A stretch of DNA of 64,000 bases from a phage. The stretch is taken from assembly GCA_018509705.1 (NCBI GenBank), contig GCA_018509705.1_3630.1. One strand, 5' to 3'. Under the pieces are notes generated by a model. The model worked only from the letters and a program-made list of their open reading frames with translations. It did no database searches and was not told where the DNA came from. The number at the start of each line of letters is the position of its first letter. The first letter of the stretch is position 1. Positions 1,492 through 45,256 of the stretch are shown here, in pieces. The translations under genes and the position numbers were made by a program.

Positions 1492-1508
1492 TTTAAGGCT
1501 CCAGAAAC

Positions 1509-1546
1509 GAAAAAACCCCGCAGCTATACAGCTAACGGGGCGGGTT
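1509..1546 (-). terminator. Rho-independent terminator (minus strand)
   Basis: Hairpin CCCCG-N15-CGGGG followed by T-run on minus strand, downstream of gene 1597-1866. Confidence 0.5.
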
Positions 1547-1596
1547 AAAATTGAGTAACCTAAATAGATCGAAACTAACTAAAAGGAGACTAATAC

Positions 1597-1866
1597 TTAT
1601 CGAGGCACTCGGTGGATGATTCTAACAGTAACTGCATTTTCATTCATCAAGTATGCATCTACATCTCTGTAAATATAAAACTTCTGCTCACTATCAACAA
1701 CACAAGCTACCGCCCCTTCAGAGTTGTCTTCAAAAAAGACCACCACTGCATCGCAGCTGAGTTCATGATATGACTCTCGAAGATTTACAGCCAGAGGATT
1801 GAAATCGTCACGAAAATCTACGGTATGGGTTGGATTTACACGCTCTACAATTTTAAGTGTATACAT
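1597..1866 (-). CDS. hypothetical protein
   Basis: ORF with AAGGAA RBS before ATG at 1866; longer track ORF would overlap tRNA-Pro. Confidence 0.45.
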   Translation of the reverse strand: MYTLKIVERVNPTHTVDFRDDFNPLAVNLRESYHELSCDAVVVFFEDNSEGAVACVVDSEQKFYIYRDVDAYLMNENAVTVRIIHRVPR

Positions 1867-1912
1867 TTTAAAGGTTCCTTTTGTTTGTATATGTTTAAAG
1901 TATAACTGAAAG

Positions 1913-1989
1913 TGGTCTCCACGGAGTGATTCGAACACTCGACCTCCTGATCCCAAATCAGGCGCTCTACCAAGCTGAGCTACGCGGAG
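1913..1989 (-). tRNA. tRNA-Pro (anticodon UGG)
   Basis: Cloverleaf readable on minus strand: 7-bp acceptor, T-loop GTTCGAATC, anticodon loop TTTGGGA, CCA encoded. Confidence 0.7.
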
Positions 1990-2000
1990 TATTTATTATT

Positions 2001-2076
2001 TGGTGGCCCTGGGTGGAATTGAACCACCGTCTGGCGATTATGAGTCGCTTGCTTGAACCTTCCAGCTACAGGGCCA
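2001..2076 (-). tRNA. tRNA-Met or Ile2 (anticodon CAU)
   Basis: Minus strand; T-arm GGTGGTTCAATTCCACC, anticodon loop CTCATAA, CCA encoded. Confidence 0.6.
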
Positions 2077-2153
2077 TGGTGCTGATGGCAGGACTTGAAC
2101 CTGCAACCTATTGATTACAAATCAATTGCACTACCAATTGTGCTACATCAGCA
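2077..2153 (-). tRNA. tRNA-Thr (anticodon UGU)
   Basis: Minus strand; D-arm GCACAATTGGTAGTGC, anticodon loop TTTGTAA, T-arm GCAGGTTCAAGTCCTGC, CCA encoded. Confidence 0.65.
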
Positions 2154-2157
2154 AAAA

Positions 2158-2256
2158 GGTGCTAGGTGATGGAATCGAACCACCTATGTATTCAACGACT
2201 ACCTCGTCTATTTTCAGGATTAAAAATCCTCGCCCTTGCCAAAGGGCTTACCTAGC
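2158..2256 (-). tRNA. Aberrant tRNA-like element (good acceptor/D/T arms, irregular anticodon arm, over-long variable region); possible pseudo-tRNA
   Basis: Acceptor GCTAGGT/ACCTAGC pair, T-arm GGTGGTTCGATTCCATC, but anticodon stem does not close canonically and about 30 nt lie between anticodon arm and T-arm. Confidence 0.25.
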
Positions 2257-2354
2257 TCAGTATGTTGACCATGTTGCTAGTCGGCGATGACGACTGTAAC
2301 ATTTGATAATCCGGTTCTGCTTCCGGCTTTCGCTTAATTACAAGGTCAACAATA

Positions 2355-2445
2355 TGGCTGAGGGTAATGGAATCGAACCATCATCAAGTCATCCTCAACG
2401 GGACGGTTTTCAAGACCGCTTGAGCACCATTGCTCCCTACCCTCA
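2355..2445 (-). tRNA. tRNA-Ser (anticodon UGA), type II with long variable arm
   Basis: Minus strand; acceptor TGAGGGT/ACCCTCA, anticodon loop CTTGAAA, long variable arm, T-loop TTCGATT, CCA encoded. Confidence 0.6.
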
Positions 2446-2559
2446 TTTATAAACAATACTGATAATGACACTGATTTTCGAGCAGTTAGTGACTAGTATA
2501 AACGACGATAAATATCAATGCCATTATCTGTATGATTTATGCATTTAAAACTATAAATT

Positions 2560-2646
2560 TGGTGGGGAGTGGTGGAGTCGAACCACCCGAGTCGCAATGA
2601 CAATAGATTTACAGTCTACACCGCTACCCCTACGGGATAACTCCCC
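2560..2646 (-). tRNA. tRNA-Tyr (anticodon GUA), long variable arm
   Basis: Minus strand; acceptor GGGGAGT/ACTCCCC, anticodon loop CTGTAAA, T-arm GGTGGTTCGACTCCACC, CCA encoded. Confidence 0.6.
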
Positions 2647-2650
2647 AATT

Positions 2651-2725
2651 TGGCACCCCGTACTGGACTCGAACCAGTGTCAACGGCTTAGAAGGCCGCT
2701 GCTTTATCCACTAAGCTAACAGGGC
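2651..2725 (-). tRNA. tRNA-Arg (anticodon UCU)
   Basis: Minus strand; D-arm GCTTAGTGGATAAAGC, anticodon stem-loop GCGGC-CTTCTAA-GCCGT, T-arm ACTGGTTCGAGTCCAGT, CCA encoded. Confidence 0.65.
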
Positions 2726-2821
2726 ACTGGGTGGCTTTCTTTTACACCTTAGCCGCCAGAAAAGGTGGGAGACCATGTTTACAATATTACACTGTTAAGC
2801 AAAGTTTGTCAAGAAAATATT

Positions 2822-3160
2822 TTAGCTATTGCTAACAGGTTGTATTTCTGTGGTAAATGGCATAAAAGGTGCTGGTTTTTCAGCCTCTTCTACTACCACC
2901 TCTTCCTCTTCACCAAACATCTCATCATATTCTTCCTGCATTCGGTCTGCCTTATCAAGAACATACTCTGCAATGCTTTGACGAATATTTTGTTTGGTTT
3001 TCGGGTCCAACATCAGCTCTCTTAAAACTTTGTGAGCTTCTGGAACCATCGCTATAAAAGATTCCTTCATATCAAGGATGTTCTTCTCTAGCTGAATGGC
3101 GTTGGACTCCTCTTTCAGAGGTCTGCCTCTACGGCGACGCTTTTTAGTTGTATCCGCCAT
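2822..3160 (-). CDS. hypothetical basic/acidic protein with AT-hook-like RGRP motif
   Basis: ATG at 3160 after GGAGG RBS; KKRRRRGRPLKE N-terminus, acidic C-terminus. Confidence 0.45.
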   Translation of the reverse strand: MADTTKKRRRRGRPLKEESNAIQLEKNILDMKESFIAMVPEAHKVLRELMLDPKTKQNIRQSIAEYVLDKADRMQEEYDEMFGEEEEVVVEEAEKPAPFMPFTTEIQPVSNS

Positions 3161-3504
3161 GTTTCCTCCATTATCACGTGATAGGTGGATTTTATCATAG
3201 CAAATACTGATTGTCAAGTTCGCCGCAGGGTGGTATTCCCTGCGACTTGTCCAGCGTCCTGGACCAGCAAGACCCAACAAGTGGGTTACCAGAGCCCATT
3301 ACCGCACTTTGGCTCGACCTTATTACAGGTTGGCTGGGGTCACATCGTCATGTGCTGGCTGCCCCTACCATTTTAAGTGTGGTGCACTATCAAGCCCTCT
3401 AAGGGGAACTCAGCCTTCTCCGAACCCTGTTTCAAAGCATCCGGAGATAAAGCCATCAAATTCATCTTTAAATTGGATATTCATCATGATACACGAAAAC
3501 AACC

Positions 3505-5617: not shown

Positions 5618-6172
5618 TTACTCCCCGCTGTCAATAGCAAAACTCATTGCAATACGGTATGCCTCTTCTAATGGTAAGAGTCTCCCCCACACATCCCAAC
5701 CGACATCAAACTGTCTGCCAAACAACTGTTGTGTGGTTCCGTGAGCATGACCGAACAGTTGGACTGATCCGTGAGGCTTTCTGTTCCACTTTGCAAACTG
5801 GTAATGGCTCATACAGATCAAATTCTTGTTGTGGCGAAGCTCGTAATAATCTACAACCTCATGACCGAACTCTTTCATAATTCTGACAGTCGTCCTTGTG
5901 TCATGGTTACCACGAACAAGAATAATATGTCCGTTCAACATATTTAGAACATCTGGGAGCAATTTGTTGATATTCTTATCATTAGTGCACGCAATATCTC
6001 CCAAGTGAAACACAGTGTCTGCAGGTGACACAACAGAGTTCCACTTGGTGATGATTCCCGCATTCATACTGTCAAGATTGTGATCATACTGAGATCTGTG
6101 TTTTTGACATGAGTCGAACTCCATGACCCGCTGGTGGAGAAAGTGTGTGTCGCTTGTTACAAAGTATTTCAT
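5618..6172 (-). CDS. calcineurin-like metallophosphoesterase (Ser/Thr-phosphatase fold)
   Basis: Motifs SDTH(F), LGDI, GNHD in order; start at MKYF with GAGGA RBS, 7 nt after stop of upstream kinase gene. Confidence 0.7.
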   Translation of the reverse strand: MKYFVTSDTHFLHQRVMEFDSCQKHRSQYDHNLDSMNAGIITKWNSVVSPADTVFHLGDIACTNDKNINKLLPDVLNMLNGHIILVRGNHDTRTTVRIMKEFGHEVVDYYELRHNKNLICMSHYQFAKWNRKPHGSVQLFGHAHGTTQQLFGRQFDVGWDVWGRLLPLEEAYRIAMSFAIDSGE

Positions 6173-6179
6173 ACATTCC

Positions 6180-6590
6180 TCATTTAAGTTTAATGCAGTT
6201 TTTAAGCTGGCGTTCCATACGATCCACAACCCTGTCTGGAACATCATGAATGCTTTTATTACCATGGCGGTTTTCAACCACGATCACGGTATAACTATAC
6301 CCATGACTGATCGCCATGTCAATATATTCTTGCACATATTTTTCTTTTGTAAACGTATTACTTACCACGATACGGTCGTATCCCATACGCATCATATCTT
6401 CTACGTTATCTTTGCACCATTTTGCTGCAAGTGTTACTTTACTTGCATCCCAGTTGTAATTTCCATCATCGTCGTACCAGAACATGTCGTTCTCAAAATG
6501 TGGATACAGACCTTCTAAAGATAGCGCATTTGCCAGTGTTGATTTGCCAGACCCTGGTAGACCACGCACGATATATAGCATTTTAGACAT
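6180..6590 (-). CDS. P-loop kinase, polynucleotide-kinase-like
   Basis: Walker A GLPGSGKST near N-terminus; GGAGG RBS before ATG at 6590; directly upstream of the phosphatase. Confidence 0.55.
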   Translation of the reverse strand: MSKMLYIVRGLPGSGKSTLANALSLEGLYPHFENDMFWYDDDGNYNWDASKVTLAAKWCKDNVEDMMRMGYDRIVVSNTFTKEKYVQEYIDMAISHGYSYTVIVVENRHGNKSIHDVPDRVVDRMERQLKNCIKLK

Positions 6591-6711
6591 AGTAATCCTC
6601 CGTTTTAATTTCAACGATAGTATACCCAACTGTTTTGTTAATTTCAAGTGTTGACACTAGGTTATTTGTGTGGCAGGATAGACTGACAAAATGACAAATG
6701 AGGAATGTATA

Positions 6712-7626
6712 ATGAAGTATTTTAATGCAGACGACCTAGTTGACAAAGGTCTTGTAACCAGCAGATATTACCCAGATCTTGGGTTAAAGATCTATAAATA
6801 TGCCAGAAAAGTATTCTACAACAACTTATGGCATTTGTCTCCTCGATTACTGGAGTGCCGAGGCATTGTTGTCGGTAATGAAGGAAATGTTGTGGCATGG
6901 CCCTTCACAAAAGTGTTTAACTTGGGAGAAAACTCCACCAACCTGCCTGACAATAAGCTTGTGACGGCGGTAGAGAAAAAGAACGGATTCCTTGGTGTGG
7001 TGTCATCTCATAAAGGTGAACTATTGTTCTCAACAACCGGGTCTCTTGATTCTCCATATTGTAACCTTGCAAAGGAAACCATCCAGGAGCAATGCAGTAA
7101 TTTAGATCTTATCAAGAAGGTTATGGGCAATGAAAACATGACATTCATGTTTGAAATTTGTCACCCTTCAGATCCGCATATTGTTCAGGAAGATCATGGT
7201 GCATATTTGATAGGTTGCAGATATAATGATTCTGGAATAATGCTACCAGAAGCAGCTTTAGATGGGATTGCCAAATACCTTGGTGCAAAACGTCCTCACA
7301 CTGTGCGTGAAATTCCGTTCAGTTATGCAAAAGAATTGGCTGCAGAAACAAGAGGTGAAGGGTATATGATTCGTAAGCCTTACTACCCTTATGATCTGCA
7401 GCTGAAGATTAAGTCTCCATACTATCTGGCACGGAAGGCCGTAATGAGGGGTAAAGCTTGGAAGATTTGGGATGATGATATCTTTAAACGTGTTGACGAA
7501 GAGTTTTACGGCATGGTAAACTTCATTCGTAACAACTACACAGAGGATGTATGGAACTGCCTCCTGGAGCAGGAACGCCGTGAGATACTTGATTACTATT
7601 TCCACAACGAGAACTATATGCAATGA
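6712..7626 (+). CDS. RNA ligase (covalent nucleotidyltransferase superfamily)
   Basis: Motif I KKNGF (KxNG), motif IV EGYMIRK, motif V LKIK; AGGAA RBS before ATG 6712 (alternative start 6691). Confidence 0.6.
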   Translation: MKYFNADDLVDKGLVTSRYYPDLGLKIYKYARKVFYNNLWHLSPRLLECRGIVVGNEGNVVAWPFTKVFNLGENSTNLPDNKLVTAVEKKNGFLGVVSSHKGELLFSTTGSLDSPYCNLAKETIQEQCSNLDLIKKVMGNENMTFMFEICHPSDPHIVQEDHGAYLIGCRYNDSGIMLPEAALDGIAKYLGAKRPHTVREIPFSYAKELAAETRGEGYMIRKPYYPYDLQLKIKSPYYLARKAVMRGKAWKIWDDDIFKRVDEEFYGMVNFIRNNYTEDVWNCLLEQERREILDYYFHNENYMQ

Positions 7627-7973
7627 AGAAGTTGATTGTGTGGCTAGATGACTTGAGAGATCCGTCAAATTATGGGCTCCCAGACGCTATTTGGCTAAAG
7701 AATTCCTCCGAGTTTATGGATTTTATTAACGATAATAAAAAGCTCTACAGACGCGTTTCTGAGTGGCATATGGACAACGACCTTGGAGAGGTATTCGAAG
7801 GGTACGATTGCCTATCCATGTTGGAGGAAAAGTTTGTATTTGGTAAGCCTCCTGTAGTTGACAACGTGAAGATTTTCGTGCATACTTCTAACCCATCAGC
7901 GGCTCGTAAATTCATGCTTGCGACTGACTCGTTTAAAAAGTTTGGAATAGAGATTAAACAAAACATCTACTGA
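7623..7973 (+). CDS. small receiver-domain-like protein
   Basis: IVWLDDLRDP ... HMDNDLG ... HTSNP spacing resembles a REC-fold acidic pocket; overlaps stop of RNA ligase. Confidence 0.3.
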   Translation: MKKLIVWLDDLRDPSNYGLPDAIWLKNSSEFMDFINDNKKLYRRVSEWHMDNDLGEVFEGYDCLSMLEEKFVFGKPPVVDNVKIFVHTSNPSAARKFMLATDSFKKFGIEIKQNIY

Positions 7974-7981
7974 GGACACTT

Positions 7982-8743
7982 ATGCGACGACTGATTGTTA
8001 TCTCCGGTGCTGGTTTGAGTGCTGAATCTGGTATTCCCACTTTCCGATCTGGTAGCACTGCAATGTGGGAGAATTTCAGCATCGATGAGGTGTGCAACAT
8101 CCACACCTTTGCCAAGAACTACTATAAGGTGCATGACTTTTACAATGCACGTCGTGTAGCTTTAGGCAGTGTTGAGCCTAACCTTGCACATCTTCGGATC
8201 GCTGAGTGGTATTCCCGCTGGTCTGGTCGTGTGATCAACCTTACCACCAATGTAGATGATTTGCTGGAGCGTGCTGGTGTAAAACATGAAGATATTTTAC
8301 ATGTCCACGGGTATTTGCCAGAAATAGTCTATGAGGACGATGAAGGAAGTGACGTCATTAAGGACATTGGATACTCTGAGGTAGACGCAGGAAAGTATAC
8401 CTGGGTTAAGCCTAATGTGGTGTTCTTCGGAGAAGTAGCTCCGAAGTATACAGACATGTATGACCTGTTGACTTCTCTTACGAGCAATGATATGGTTATC
8501 CTTGTAGGGTGCTCCAACACAGTTATCAATTTTAACTGGGAGCTATTCCCTGCCTGCAATAAGGGAACCAAACTACTGATCGTTAATAAATACGACTCAC
8601 AGCATCTAGAGGAGAATGGCATTTCACGTAGTGATATTTACCAGTATGAGGATCGCGGCATCCCAGTTTGGTTTAACGGTGCGGTTGATGCCTTCTCTGA
8701 TAAAACATTCATTGAGACTGTAGAAAACTTTATGGAACTTTAA
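7982..8743 (+). CDS. Sir2-family (sirtuin-like) NAD-dependent protein
   Basis: ISGAGLSAESGIPTFR matches sirtuin GAGISxxSGIPxFR; TTNVDDLLERAG and HG motifs follow. Confidence 0.7.
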   Translation: MRRLIVISGAGLSAESGIPTFRSGSTAMWENFSIDEVCNIHTFAKNYYKVHDFYNARRVALGSVEPNLAHLRIAEWYSRWSGRVINLTTNVDDLLERAGVKHEDILHVHGYLPEIVYEDDEGSDVIKDIGYSEVDAGKYTWVKPNVVFFGEVAPKYTDMYDLLTSLTSNDMVILVGCSNTVINFNWELFPACNKGTKLLIVNKYDSQHLEENGISRSDIYQYEDRGIPVWFNGAVDAFSDKTFIETVENFMEL

Positions 8744-44568: not shown

Positions 44569-44874
44569 ATGGCTAAATCTAAAGTTGAACTGTTCACCTC
44601 TCTTCCTTCTGACACTGCAGAACGTGATCGCCTTCGCAAAACAATTGAAGAACTGGTGGAACTCCAGCTTCAGATTAAAGATTTGAAAGATGCCATCAAG
44701 GATATCATTCTTGTTGAGAAGCAGGATCATCTGTATTCTCCTAAATTCATCAAATCTCTGGTGGCTACCGAGTTCGATATTCGCTATGAGGCTGAAAAAC
44801 GTCGCGCTAAAATCGAAGAAGAGGTTGAGCACATGTCTGAGGCAGACATTCTGTTCAAACGCTCTGTAGAATAA
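44569..44874 (+). CDS. hypothetical coiled-coil protein
   Basis: AAGGAGA RBS; charged heptad-like sequence. Confidence 0.45.
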   Translation: MAKSKVELFTSLPSDTAERDRLRKTIEELVELQLQIKDLKDAIKDIILVEKQDHLYSPKFIKSLVATEFDIRYEAEKRRAKIEEEVEHMSEADILFKRSVE

Positions 44875-44880
44875 TGACAA

Positions 44881-44907
44881 AGAGGGGGGCTTGGGCCCCT
44901 CTTTTTA
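44881..44907 (+). terminator. Rho-independent terminator
   Basis: GAGGGGGGC-TTG-GGCCCCTCT then TTTTT. Confidence 0.65.
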
Positions 44908-44929
44908 CTATCTATGAAGGAGATTTGAG

Positions 44930-45256
44930 ATGGGTATACCGATTACTGTAAAAGAGCTAAATGAACGTGATGCAGGTGGTCTATGGCCTGCACGAAAAAT
45001 CCGCTGCGTCTATATGAAAGAGAATCTTGAACATCTTGATCAACAGATAAAGGTCGGCGATATTTTCGAGGTCTTCTATTCCAATCGGCGCAACTGGGAA
45101 ACCATTCAGCCTTCTGGTTTTGTTCTTGCCAAACTTGACACTGGAGAAGTGATTATCCCTGGGTTGGATATTGTCTTCGAAATTATCCAGGAGTGGGATC
45201 CGGATAAGATTAGATACGAAGAATTATTCGGTAAAGGTATTATCAAACCTGTGTGA
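44930..45256 (+). CDS. hypothetical protein
   Basis: ORF track; GAAGGAG RBS. Confidence 0.45.
   Translation: MGIPITVKELNERDAGGLWPARKIRCVYMKENLEHLDQQIKVGDIFEVFYSNRRNWETIQPSGFVLAKLDTGEVIIPGLDIVFEIIQEWDPDKIRYEELFGKGIIKPV

What the first reader, a model, noticed from the sequence alone, without database searches (positions are those of the whole stretch)
1913..2725. tRNA cluster with one aberrant tRNA-like element
Six convincing tRNAs (Pro-UGG, Met/Ile-CAU, Thr-UGU, Ser-UGA, Tyr-GUA, Arg-UCU) are packed head to tail on the minus strand, all with encoded CCA. One further element (2158-2256) has good acceptor, D and T arms but an irregular anticodon arm and about 30 nt between anticodon and T arms. 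It may be a decaying tRNA, a tRNA with an insertion, or a tRNA-derived regulatory RNA. The set is enriched for anticodons that known host anticodon nucleases target or that read rare codons, tying in with the RNA-repair module.
Basis: seen in the sequence. Interest (0 to 1): 0.45.

Follow-up and report, generated by a model that had tools for sequence, protein, structure and literature searches.

The report
Conserved tRNA mimic in phage cluster
Beside six ordinary tRNA genes, this rV5-like coliphage carries a seventh, oddly built tRNA-like RNA that is kept and structurally maintained across a whole phage subfamily, so it is a working tRNA mimic of unknown role rather than a dying gene.

Summary
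The window is an rV5-like coliphage (Vequintavirus). ARAGORN finds six clean minus-strand tRNAs, all with encoded CCA: Pro-UGG, CAU (really Ile2), Thr-UGU, Ser-UGA, Tyr-GUA and Arg-UCU. It also finds one unassignable element at 2158-2256.

The element is not decaying. Homologues lie in the tRNA clusters of five Vequintavirinae genera and related metagenomic contigs, giving 27 distinct sequences. In these, 95% of cloverleaf pair cells are paired and 18 of 27 pairs show compensatory changes. The elbow pair G19:C56 switches to U19:A56. The element is at least as conserved as the neighbouring true tRNAs.

It is not a canonical decoder either. The anticodon arm is always 15-16 nt, never 17, and its loop is not conserved. 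An extra arm sits between invariant GAAAA and AUACAUA segments.

In this window's lineage the loop was replaced by a tRNA-Lys(UUU)-like GAUUUUUAAUC, with A73. This sequence carries the PARIS AriB site with the cleavage-inhibiting C41.

My best reading is a processed, non-decoding tRNA mimic, probably a decoy or ligand for a tRNA-binding factor such as a defence nuclease. That function is inferred, not shown. I found no description of it.

Two further unannotated structured elements sit in the same operon. One is shared with phage lambda.

The parts
2158..2256 (-). Non-canonical tRNA-like RNA, the 'aberrant element'. Sub-parts: acceptor 5' strand 2250-2256; A8 A9 2248-2249; D arm 2232-2247; G26 2231; 15-nt anticodon-like arm AGGA-UUUUUAA-UCCU 2216-2230; invariant linker GAAAAUA 2209-2215; extra hairpin GACGA-GGUAG-UCGUU 2194-2208; invariant linker GAAUACAUA 2185-2193; T arm 2168-2184; acceptor 3' strand 2161-2167; A73 at 2160; CC 2158-2159.
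   Evidence: ARAGORN reports tRNA-???. Rfam tRNA scores 35.5 bits with a 26-nt insertion. Family model R1 scores 99.5 bits, with a single copy in the window. Covariation across 17 and 27 homologues.
1913..1989 (-). tRNA-Pro(UGG), CCA encoded
   Evidence: (66.4 bits)
2001..2075 (-). tRNA with CAU anticodon. Most likely tRNA-Ile2 (AUA, lysidine), not Met.
   Evidence: 60 bits. Best E. coli matches are tRNA-Ile. Annotated tRNA-Ile/ATA in phage MaxTheCat.
2077..2152 (-). tRNA-Thr(UGU). It starts 5 nt after the tRNA-like element.
   Evidence: 79.5 bits
2355..2445 (-). tRNA-Ser(UGA), class II, G73, CCA encoded
   Evidence: A homologous tRNA-Ser occurs in P1-like phage D6.
2560..2646 (-). tRNA-Tyr(GUA), class II
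2651..2725 (-). tRNA-Arg(UCU)
   Evidence: 67.8 bits
2784..2812 (-). Sigma-70-type promoter TTGACA-17-TAATAT upstream of tRNA-Arg. It is the likely start of the polycistronic tRNA transcript.
   Evidence: The same site is annotated P(tRNA) in rV5.
2257..2354 (-). Second unannotated structured element, directly 3' of tRNA-Ser. The closing stem is GUUGACC (2344-2350) paired with GGUCAAC (2264-2270). It encloses a conserved core (about 2272-2339) with hairpins CCGG-AAGCAGAA-CCGG and AGUCG-UCAUCGC-CGACU. The core is shared with lambda, P1-like phages and prophages.
2446..2559 (-). Tyr-Ser spacer that folds into a long 15-bp hairpin (GAUAAUGGCAUUGAU / AUCAGUGUCAUUAUC) around a conserved 40-nt apical region.
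   Evidence: z = -4.2. Compensatory C-G to U-A and G.U to G-C/A-U changes in two divergent contigs. A weak promoter-like site lies at 2495-2524.
5618..8743 (.). Context: RNA break-repair module. Metallophosphoesterase 5618-6277(-), P-loop polynucleotide-kinase-like 6180-6647(-), Rnl1-type RNA ligase 6691-7626(+), cREC_REC 7623-7973(+), SIR2 7982-8743(+).
   Evidence: Pfam. Annotation of MaxTheCat.

Best explanation
The element at 2158-2256 is a functional, non-canonical tRNA-like RNA. It belongs to a family conserved in the tRNA clusters of Vequintavirinae phages.

Shown:
- It keeps a tRNA acceptor stem, D arm, T arm and the D-loop/T-loop elbow pair under selection.
- Its anticodon arm is one to two nucleotides too short in every member.
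- Its loop sequence is not conserved between genera.
- It carries an extra arm flanked by invariant single-stranded GAAAA and AUACAUA segments.

Inferred:
- It is transcribed from the sigma-70 promoter upstream of tRNA-Arg as part of the polycistronic tRNA precursor.
- It is cut out by RNase P and the 3'-trimming and CCA-adding enzymes like its neighbours.
- It folds into an L shape with a free acceptor end.
- It does not decode codons in the normal way.

I propose that it works as a tRNA mimic that occupies a tRNA-binding factor. For the lineage in this window, the anticodon stem-loop was replaced wholesale by a tRNA-Lys(UUU)-like sequence (GAUUUUUAAUC, with A73). For that lineage the most likely partner is a host tRNA-Lys-directed defence enzyme of the PARIS AriB or PrrC type. 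The RNA would bind it as a poorly cleavable decoy.

Rough probabilities: a selected functional tRNA-like RNA, about 0.9. Non-decoding, about 0.65. Specifically an anti-defence decoy, about 0.3.
For: Distribution and synteny:
- Homologues lie beside tRNA-Thr/Ile in Vequintavirus, Avunavirus, Seunavirus, Mydovirus and Henunavirus phages.
- They also occur in IMG/VR and metagenome contigs.
- The invariant 22-mer was absent from one genome each of 185,579 bacterial and archaeal species.

Structure:
- On 17 MAFFT-aligned sequences, 93.7% of cells are paired and 14 pairs show double changes. The covariation score is 0.40, against 0.15 in shuffles (0 of 500 reach it) and at most 0.11 when partners are slid.
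- On 27 distinct model-aligned sequences, 95% are paired, 18 of 27 pairs are compensatory, and the score is 0.53 against 0.19.
- The tertiary pair G19:C56 becomes U19:A56 in 7 of 17 sequences, with no exception.

Selection:
- Identity between the window and other genera is 67-71% overall and 73-80% without the extra arm. Orthologous Thr, Arg and Tyr tRNAs are 58-79% identical.

Against canonical decoding:
- The anticodon arm is 15-16 nt in all members. The loops are UUUUUAA, UUUAUAA, CAUCCA, CCUCAA, CAGCCA, CUUCCA, YAUCAAA and AAUCAAG.
- The 7-nt UCA loops have A33.
- Phages with large tRNA sets keep canonical tRNA-Gly(UCC), Lys(UUU) and Ser alongside the element.

Lys mimicry:
- The loop plus two closing pairs matches E. 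coli tRNA-Lys at 10 of 11 positions, differing only by C32U. The E. coli sequence was verified.
- The discriminator is A73, where all other genera have U73.
- U36-A-A-U-C40|C41 is the AriB site with the A41C change that 'substantially inhibits' cleavage (PMC12409363).
- An Rnl1/kinase/phosphoesterase tRNA-repair module lies 3-5 kb away.
Against: - No expression, processing, aminoacylation or phenotype data exist for this RNA.
- The decoy idea rests on sequence resemblance only.
- In the sister genera the loop does not copy any 7-nt host anticodon loop, so a decoy role cannot be the family-wide explanation in any simple form.
- The Av-05 lineage has U35A (UUUAUAA) and no CCA, yet it still maintains the fold. 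This argues that the function does not depend on Lys mimicry.
- The phage's own tRNA-Thr(UGU) keeps the cleavable UAAUC|A site, so the cluster is not uniformly 'hardened' against AriB.
- Phage V18 has deleted the 5' half of the element together with Tyr and Ser, so it is dispensable at least in culture.
- The sequences are related, so the shuffle statistics overstate independence. Alignment A4 was fitted to the model.
Confidence: 0.4

Rival explanations
1. In the Vequintavirus lineage the element is a working, structurally unusual tRNA-Lys(UUU). It would be charged by LysRS (anticodon UUU, A73) and would replace host tRNA-Lys when a defence nuclease destroys it, as T5 tRNA-Lys does. The odd body and C41 would make it nuclease-resistant.
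For: - The 7-nt loop UUUUUAA has U33 and A37.
- If the flanking G.G is counted as pair 27:43, the stem-loop is 17 nt and only nucleotide 26 is missing (alignment).
- A73 is specific to this lineage.
- Rfam tRNA scores above threshold.
- Several GenBank records call it tRNA-Lys.
- rV5-like phages carry no other tRNA-Lys.
- T5 provides a precedent (PMC11464382, PMC12409363).
Against: - The helix from the D stem to the loop is one stacked layer shorter than in any canonical tRNA.
- The minimum-free-energy fold closes the loop to 3-5 nt.
- The homologous RNA in every other genus cannot decode (6-nt loops or A33), yet it is equally conserved.
- Av-05 carries U35A, which removes the main LysRS determinant, yet it keeps compensatory changes elsewhere.
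- CCA is not encoded, unlike in all six true tRNAs.
Confidence: 0.2
2. It is a tRNA-shaped scaffold with some other role. The conserved extra arm and linkers would bind a phage or host protein, or the RNA would be charged by an anticodon-independent synthetase for a non-ribosomal use. Alternatively it acts in cis as a processing or stability element of the tRNA operon. The anticodon loop would be largely irrelevant.
For: - The invariant GAAAA and AUACAUA linkers.
- A conserved 12-nt loop, GAAYUAACAGUA, carried on four different covarying stems (GCC/GGC, GUC/GAC, AGCG/CGCU, UUCC/GGAA).
- CCA is encoded in most genera.
- T4 provides a precedent: rnaC and rnaD are stable RNAs in its tRNA cluster, annotated without a function.
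Against: - No partner was identified.
- The linker complement shows no enrichment of targets in the window: 18 matches against 18.3 expected.
- The loop consensus NNUC(A/C)A is conserved over several genera, so the loop is not free to drift.
- The window's own extra arm is the short variable type and lacks the conserved loop.
Confidence: 0.27
3. It is a decaying tRNA pseudogene, for example a former class II tRNA, or a chance tRNA-like sequence with no function.
For: - Irregular anticodon arm.
- Missing CCA in this lineage.
- Inconsistent calls by annotation tools, including 'tRNA-Pseudo'.
- Deleted in phage V18.
Against: - All four cloverleaf stems plus a tertiary pair are maintained by compensatory changes across five genera.
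- Conservation is equal to or above that of true tRNAs.
- The unpaired segments are invariant.
Confidence: 0.03

Closest known systems
Class II (long-variable-arm) tRNAs: tRNA-Ser, -Leu, bacterial -Tyr, and tRNA-Sec
   Same: - 7/5 acceptor/T helices, a D arm with GG, and T loop UUCGAUU.
- A base-paired extra arm between the anticodon and T arms.
- A 3' CCA in most members.
- A D region that could form a 6-bp stem with a 4-nt loop, as in tRNA-Sec.
- Some members have UCA in the loop and were annotated tRNA-sup(tca).
   Different: - The anticodon arm is 15-16 nt, not 17.
- No anticodon is conserved.
- 7 and 9 nt of invariant single strand flank the extra arm, instead of 1-2 nt.
- A8 and U14 replace U8 and A14.
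- The discriminator is U73 (A73 here), not G73.
- Acceptor/T is 7/5, not 8/5.
- The Rfam tRNA-Sec score is 37-39 bits against a threshold of 47.
T4 rnaC and rnaD (species 1 and 2 stable RNAs in the T4 tRNA cluster)
   Same: - Small stable RNAs encoded inside a phage tRNA cluster next to tRNA-Arg.
- rnaC ends in a tRNA-like T arm (CCGGG-UUCGAAU-CCCGG) and an acceptor-like helix.
- Function unknown.
   Different: - No detectable homology. Family model R1 scores 8.4 bits, E 0.19, on rnaC and nothing on rnaD.
- The T4 RNAs are longer (119-139 nt) and lack a full cloverleaf.
Nuclease-resistant phage tRNAs, for example T5 tRNA-Lys(UUU), which neutralises PARIS
   Same: - Phage-encoded, with a Lys UUU loop.
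- A change at position 41 (A to C) of the AriB cleavage site.
- Sits in a phage that also carries tRNA-Thr(UGU) and a tRNA-repair module.
   Different: - The T5 tRNA is a canonical cloverleaf that decodes.
- This RNA has a shortened anticodon helix and a 31-nt variable region.
- Its orthologues in other genera have no Lys-like loop.
- U39 is retained, whereas T5 has A39.
allo-tRNAs and other non-canonical bacterial or phage tRNAs (8/4, 9/3 structures; Mukai et al., PMC5389517)
   Same: - Long variable arm and varied anticodons.
- Suggested to act as suppressors or as regulatory non-coding RNAs.
- Found partly in phages (abstract).
   Different: - allo-tRNAs are defined by 8/4 or 9/3 acceptor/T helices with normal anticodon arms.
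- This family is 7/5 with an abnormal anticodon arm.
YrlA / bacterial Y RNA tRNA-like domain
   Same: A non-decoding RNA that preserves the tRNA elbow and is linked to RNA repair or decay genes.
   Different: - In YrlA the ends lie in the Ro-binding stem and the acceptor-like helix is closed.
- Here the ends form the acceptor stem, with CCA.
- Rfam YrlA gives only spurious 15-25 bit matches spanning neighbouring tRNAs, against a threshold of 69.

Membership tests
Canonical elongator tRNA (Rfam RF00005) | 7-bp acceptor stem, D arm with G18 G19, and a 5-bp T stem with a 7-nt T loop | tested here: met
   All are maintained by covariation.
Canonical elongator tRNA (Rfam RF00005) | 17-nt anticodon arm: a 5-bp stem and a 7-nt loop with U33 | tested here: not met
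   The arm is 15 nt here and 15-16 nt in all 27 homologues. Loops are 5-7 nt. The 7-nt UCA-type loops have A33. Rfam needs a deletion at position 27.
Canonical elongator tRNA (Rfam RF00005) | The same anticodon in orthologues | tested here: not met
   At least eight different loop sequences occur across genera.
Canonical elongator tRNA (Rfam RF00005) | Score at or above Rfam's gathering threshold (29 bits) | tested here: inconclusive
   The window copy scores 35.5 bits. The Klebsiella and L161 homologues get no tRNA-clan match at E <= 0.01, and the Erwinia copies match only tRNA-Sec below threshold. ARAGORN fails on every homologue tested outside Vequintavirus; the rV5-like contig L163 gets the same tRNA-???(atcc) call as the window.
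Canonical elongator tRNA (Rfam RF00005) | Aminoacylation and ribosomal decoding | not testable with these tools
   Needs charging assays and translation assays.
tRNA-Sec / class II tRNA | 8/5 acceptor/T helices, UCA anticodon, G73, and an extra arm joined by 1-2 nt (for Sec) | tested here: not met
   Helices are 7/5. The loop here is UUUUUAA. The discriminator is A73 or U73. Linkers are 7 and 9 nt. tRNA-Sec model scores are below threshold.
tRNA pseudogene | Absence of purifying selection: stems decay and there are no compensatory changes | tested here: not met
   95% of cells are paired and 18 pairs are compensatory. Conservation is at least that of true tRNAs.
T4 rnaC/rnaD stable RNAs | Sequence or structure homology to the T4 RNAs | tested here: not met
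   Model R1, with filters off, scores 8.4 bits, E 0.19.
Nuclease-resistant phage tRNA (T5 tRNA-Lys type) | Anticodon of the targeted host tRNA plus substitutions at the nuclease site | tested here: met
   The sequence is UUU with U36AAUC|C41, against the host's U36AAUC|A41.
Nuclease-resistant phage tRNA (T5 tRNA-Lys type) | A canonical, translation-competent tRNA body that rescues infection | not testable with these tools
   The body is non-canonical by sequence. Rescue needs experiments.

The most novel reading that the evidence does not exclude
Vequintavirinae phages encode a dedicated family of tRNA-shaped decoy RNAs. These are processed like tRNAs but built so that they cannot decode. Their anticodon-like loop and extra arm are tuned, lineage by lineage, to trap or block host tRNA-directed immune enzymes. 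In rV5-like coliphages the target would be tRNA-Lys-specific nucleases such as PARIS AriB or PrrC. This would be an RNA-based anti-defence mechanism distinct from supplying replacement tRNAs.
Probability: 0.25. Interest if true: 0.8.

Novelty: new variant of a known kind. Interest (0 to 1): 0.55.

Why it matters
Phage tRNA genes have recently been recast as counter-measures against tRNA-cleaving immune systems. A conserved RNA that keeps the tRNA shape but gives up canonical decoding points to a second strategy, mimicry rather than replacement. At the least, it is a new class of phage non-coding RNA to test.

It also matters for annotation. The same gene is currently labelled tRNA-Lys, tRNA-TERM/suppressor, tRNA-OTHER or pseudo-tRNA. 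In other records it is overlapped by spurious small ORFs or left blank, across about 200 genomes of phages used in therapy and biocontrol. A 'suppressor tRNA' label can wrongly raise concerns.

The family is compact (about 100-110 nt), occurs in easily handled coliphages of the BASEL collection, and sits beside a tRNA-repair module. The question is therefore directly testable.

Tried and rejected
1. **sRNA seed idea.** The complement of the invariant linker (TATGTATTC, 1 mismatch allowed) occurs 18 times in the window against 18.3 expected, with no start-codon pattern. Rejected.

2. **Host origin or prophage copies.** The invariant 22-mer is absent from the genome collection. Rejected.

3. **Homology to T4 rnaC/rnaD.** None found.

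4. **tRNA-Sec or opal-suppressor reading,** prompted by 'tRNA-sup(tca)' annotations. The scores equal those of ordinary class II tRNAs and fall below threshold. The helices are 7/5, position 33 is A, and the loop is not conserved. Rejected as a family-wide function.

5. **tRNA-Gly(UCC) reading of the CAUCCA loop,** with U73, G1:C72 and C2:G71. The same phages carry a canonical tRNA-Gly(UCC) and the loop has only 6 nt. Not supported.

6. **Loop-loop 'kissing' between the anticodon loop and the extra arm.** UCCA/UGGA occurs in most type-A members and GCCA/UGGC in 4MG. It is absent in type B and in the window, and the motif is sometimes buried in the stem. Left as unexplained.

7. **Splicing of the extra 24-31 nt by the phage ligase to give a normal tRNA.** No excision restores a canonical arm, judged by reading the sequence. 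Rejected.

8. **Exclusive co-occurrence with the Rnl1 ligase.** The ligase is much more widespread.

9. **Recombination with a phage tRNA-Lys as the source of the Lys-like loop.** The one phage tRNA-Lys examined (L113) has a different stem. No support.

10. **Literature searches** found no description of the element. The rV5 genome paper lists six tRNAs only.

11. **D-arm pattern scan of IMG/VR**. It gave mostly chance matches and was not used further.
Full report
**Where the window comes from**

Bases 1500-3200 are 100% identical to Escherichia phages I29 and A51.2, and 98.8% identical to the type phage rV5 (Vequintavirus, Vequintavirinae).

In the rV5 record six tRNAs and a sigma-70 promoter 'P(tRNA)' are annotated here. 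Nothing is annotated at the position of the seventh element. The rV5 genome paper likewise reports six tRNAs (PMC3606486).

**Check of the observation**

The odd one is called 'tRNA-???' with a four-base anticodon.

- Rfam's tRNA model scores Thr, Arg, Pro and the CAU tRNA at 60-79.5 bits.
- Ser and Tyr are class II tRNAs. Within the tRNA clan their best match is the tRNA-Sec model, below its threshold. ARAGORN assigns both cleanly.
- All six end in an encoded CCA.
- The CAU tRNA is best read as tRNA-Ile2. Its closest E. coli relatives are annotated tRNA-Ile, and a BASEL phage record calls it Ile/ATA.

A promoter-like site, TTGACA-17-TAATAT, lies at 2812-2784 just upstream of tRNA-Arg. The seven genes are therefore probably one transcript. 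This is an inference.

**Anatomy of the aberrant element (2158-2256, minus strand)**

Read 5' to 3', the element is:

- GCUAGGU (acceptor 5' strand)
- AA
- GCCC-UUUGGCAA-GGGC (D arm)
- G
- AGGA-UUUUUAA-UCCU (anticodon-like arm)
- GAAAAUA (linker)
- GACGA-GGUAG-UCGUU (extra hairpin)
- GAAUACAUA (linker)
- GGUGG-UUCGAUU-CCAUC (T arm)
- ACCUAGC (acceptor 3' strand)
- A-CC

Rfam aligns it to the tRNA model at 35.5 bits, against a threshold of 29. This needs one anticodon-stem position deleted and 26 nt inserted in the variable region. The thermodynamic fold gives the same cloverleaf plus the extra hairpin, z = -3.7.

The anticodon arm is 15 nt, where a canonical arm has 17.

**It is conserved, not decaying**

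BLAST against 50,697 phage records finds the element in about 200 records. Every full-length match that I fetched belongs to Vequintavirinae:

| Genus | Example phages |
|---|---|
| Vequintavirus | rV5-like coliphages |
| Avunavirus | Av-05 |
| Seunavirus | SSE121, GEC_vB_MG, NINP13076, KE22, EspYZU12/15, GAP31, FENT2, LNA4 |
| Mydovirus | KpS8, VLCpiM5b, K18PH07C1 |
| Henunavirus | Hena1, pEp_SNUABM_01 |

In all of them it lies in the tRNA cluster next to tRNA-Thr or tRNA-Ile. Scans of IMG/VR and of metagenomes with the invariant 22-mer added further variants. The same 22-mer is absent from one genome each of 185,579 bacterial and archaeal species.

GenBank annotators have called this one gene tRNA-Lys, tRNA-TERM/suppressor (tca), tRNA-OTHER, tRNA-Pseudo or tRNA-???(atcc). 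Others have placed small hypothetical ORFs over it, or annotated nothing.

**Covariation**

| Alignment | Cells paired | Pairs with changes on both sides | Covariation score | Shuffled mean | Slid controls |
|---|---|---|---|---|---|
| 17 sequences, MAFFT | 93.7% | 14 | 0.40 | 0.15 (0 of 500 reach it) | at most 0.11 |
| 27 distinct sequences, aligned to family model R1 | 95% | 18 of 27 | 0.53 | 0.19 (0 of 500 reach it) | at most 0.12 |

In the 17-sequence alignment, every stem of the cloverleaf contains compensatory pairs:

- Acceptor stem: 2 pairs. Position 3:70 occurs as C-G, A-U and U-A.
- D stem: 3 of 4 pairs.
- Anticodon stem: 3 of 5 pairs.
- T stem: 1 pair.

The tertiary elbow pair is the most telling. 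All ten sequences with D-loop UUUGGCAA have T-loop UUCGAUU. All seven with UUUGUCAA have UUAGAUU. So G19:C56 has become U19:A56 without exception. This means the L-shaped fold itself is under selection.

Two caveats apply. The sequences are phylogenetically related, and alignment A4 was fitted to the model. Even so, the slid-partner controls and the MAFFT alignment agree.

Between this window and the other genera the element is 67-71% identical, or 73-80% without the extra arm. The orthologous Thr, Arg and Tyr tRNAs of the same clusters are 58-79% identical.

A8 and U14-U16 are invariant. This suggests that the usual U8-A14 and R15-Y48 contacts are swapped. That is an inference.

**It is not a canonical decoder**

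In all members the anticodon arm is 15 or 16 nt. The loops are:

| Loop | Where |
|---|---|
| UUUUUAA | Vequintavirus, this window |
| UUUAUAA | Avunavirus |
| CAUCCA, CCUCCA, CAGCCA, CUUCCA, CCUCAA | Seunavirus, Mydovirus |
| CAUCAAA, UAUCAAA, AAUCAAG | Henunavirus and metagenomic lineages |

The six-nucleotide loops cannot present a normal anticodon. The seven-nucleotide UCA loops have A at position 33 in place of the universal U.

Phages with large tRNA sets carry canonical tRNA-Gly(UCC), tRNA-Lys(UUU) and several tRNA-Ser alongside the element. It therefore does not stand in for a missing isoacceptor.

**The extra arm**

GAAAA after the anticodon stem and AUACAUA before the T stem are invariant. 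The arm between them comes in two kinds:

- Type A is a hairpin of variable sequence. This window has it.
- Type B is a short stem that covaries (GCC/GGC, GUC/GAC, AGCG/CGCU, UUCC/GGAA) and carries a conserved loop, GAAYUAACAGUA.

**What is special about this window's lineage**

The central nine nucleotides of the anticodon arm differ wholesale from those of the other genera. Together with the two closing pairs they read GAUUUUUAAUC. E. coli tRNA-Lys(UUU) reads GACUUUUAAUC. I checked that tRNA sequence against 5,426 E. coli genomes.

The discriminator is A73 here and U73 in all other genera. A73 and the UUU anticodon are the LysRS identity elements. That last point is from my own knowledge.

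[quoted passage not shown] An A41-to-C change 'substantially inhibits' cleavage, and T5's resistant tRNA-Lys carries it (PMC12409363; PMC11464382). The element reads U36-A-A-U-C40|C41.

A repair module lies 3-5 kb away (annotation):

- a T4 Rnl1-family RNA ligase (PF09511)
- a P-loop kinase
- a metallophosphoesterase
- a cyclic-phosphate-processing cREC domain
- a SIR2 protein

These are the enzyme activities used to repair anticodon-nuclease damage. [quoted passage not shown]

**Interpretation**

Shown: a selected, tRNA-shaped RNA family with an abnormal anticodon arm and a conserved extra domain.

Inferred: co-transcription, processing at tRNA-like ends, and lack of normal decoding.

My preferred mechanism is that the RNA occupies a tRNA-binding factor as a mimic. 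In rV5-like phages it would act as a poorly cleavable look-alike of tRNA-Lys for a defence nuclease.

The main rival for this lineage is a real but odd tRNA-Lys that replaces the host's. Several points argue against that rival:

- The helix is one stacked layer too short.
- The loop tends to close.
- CCA is not encoded.
- The Avunavirus lineage has U35A and no CCA, yet it shows fresh compensatory changes in the hairpin (GACGA/UCGUU to GACGG/CCGUU) and in the acceptor stem.

A third possibility is a scaffold or regulatory RNA that works through the conserved linkers and extra arm. The pseudogene reading is essentially excluded.

The element is not essential in culture. Phage V18 carries a deletion that joins the 5' half of tRNA-Tyr to the 3' part of the element.

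**Comparison with known things**

- T4's rnaC and rnaD are the classical stable RNAs in a phage tRNA cluster and are annotated without a function. rnaC has a tRNA-like T arm, but model R1 finds no homology.
- Class II tRNAs and tRNA-Sec share the extra arm but fail on the other defining features.
- allo-tRNAs differ in helix arrangement.
- YrlA has the opposite topology.

I found no paper that describes this family. Subscription journals are not covered, so this is absence of evidence only.

**By-products**

The operon holds two more conserved, unannotated structured regions.

1. *2257-2354, directly 3' of tRNA-Ser.*
   - It has a core of about 68 nt that is 83-90% identical to three other places: lambda 44866-44952 (between orf-64/tR' and S), P1-like phages D6 and P7 (in D6 also 3' of a homologous tRNA-Ser), and a Salmonella siphophage.
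   - The core occurs in 426 of 5,426 complete E. coli genomes, with nothing annotated under any listed match. It lies in lambdoid prophages between Q and the holin gene, and in P1-like plasmids.
   - The closing helix differs completely between lineages but always pairs: GUUGACC/GGUCAAC, GGAUCAU/(G)UGAUCC, GUUGUGCUG/CAGCACAAC, GUUGUGGUG/CACCACA, and a 14-bp helix in P1-like phages. One inner hairpin covaries.
   - Rfam has no match.

2. *The Tyr-Ser spacer (2446-2559).* It forms a 15-bp hairpin, z = -4.2, with compensatory changes in divergent contigs.

**Verdict**

The 'decaying tRNA' reading is rejected. The element is a member of an undescribed, subfamily-wide family of tRNA mimics whose function remains to be shown.

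Noticed in passing
window 2257-2354 (-); lambda J02459 44866-44952 (L167 501-587); D6 (L168 501-566); ST1UNAM (L169 501-568); E. coli prophages L187/L189 1501-1569; P1-like plasmid L188 1201-1266: An unannotated three-way-junction RNA motif with a core of about 68 nt: AAUUAAGCGAA..CCGG-AAGCAGAA-CCGG..CAAAUG..AGGCG-UCAUCGC-CGCCY-AGC. It is shared by rV5-like phages, lambda (late-operon leader between Q/tR' and S), P1-like phages and plasmids (3' of tRNA-Ser) and a Salmonella siphophage. It occurs in 426 of 5,426 E. coli genomes, and at least 120 IMG/VR contigs match its core pattern. The closing helix has at least five unrelated sequences that all pair. There is no Rfam match and no annotation. 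This may be more novel than the finding itself.
   Followed up: partly
window 2446-2559 (-): The spacer between tRNA-Tyr and tRNA-Ser folds into a long hairpin (15-bp stem, z = -4.2) around a highly conserved 40-nt apical region. Two divergent contigs show compensatory changes (C-G to U-A; G.U to G-C or A-U). A weak promoter-like site overlaps it. It could be an RNase III or processing site, or another small RNA.
   Followed up: partly
L011 (phage V18) about 1455-1545: Natural deletion of roughly 400 bp that fuses the 5' half of tRNA-Tyr to the 3' part of the tRNA-like element. It removes tRNA-Ser and the lambda-like motif. All four are therefore dispensable in that isolate.
   Followed up: partly
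L003 1602-1800, L010 1535-1735, L002 1601-1790, L142 506-695: In the other genera, the spacer of about 180-190 nt downstream of the tRNA-like element is conserved in two types. These types travel with the two types of extra arm, as one recombination block. It may hold yet another structured RNA or a small ORF.
   Followed up: no
window 2001-2075 (-): The 'tRNA-Met(CAT)' of ARAGORN and of many GenBank records is most similar to E. coli tRNA-Ile (the CAU, lysidine type). It most likely reads AUA, a rare codon in E. coli.
   Followed up: yes
window 5618-8743: The repair module is richer than ligase plus kinase. It also includes a metallophosphoesterase, a cyclic-phosphate-processing receiver (cREC_REC, PF20274) protein and a SIR2-family protein.
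   Followed up: partly
GenBank MG0656xx records: About 18-23 records named 'Campylobacter phage' are 99-100% identical to rV5-like coliphages over this region. They are probably mislabelled or come from contaminating coliphages.
   Followed up: no
Genome-contig loci L190, L203, L207 and others: Low-coverage contigs of about 48.4-48.5 kb in assemblies of unrelated bacteria (Pseudomonas, Shewanella, others) contain the lambda motif. They look like lambda DNA contamination of sequencing libraries.
   Followed up: no
L155 7862-7934: ARAGORN calls a tRNA with a CUA (amber) anticodon, labelled 'tRNA-Pyl', at the end of a metagenomic Vequintavirinae-like contig. It is a possible amber suppressor.
   Followed up: no
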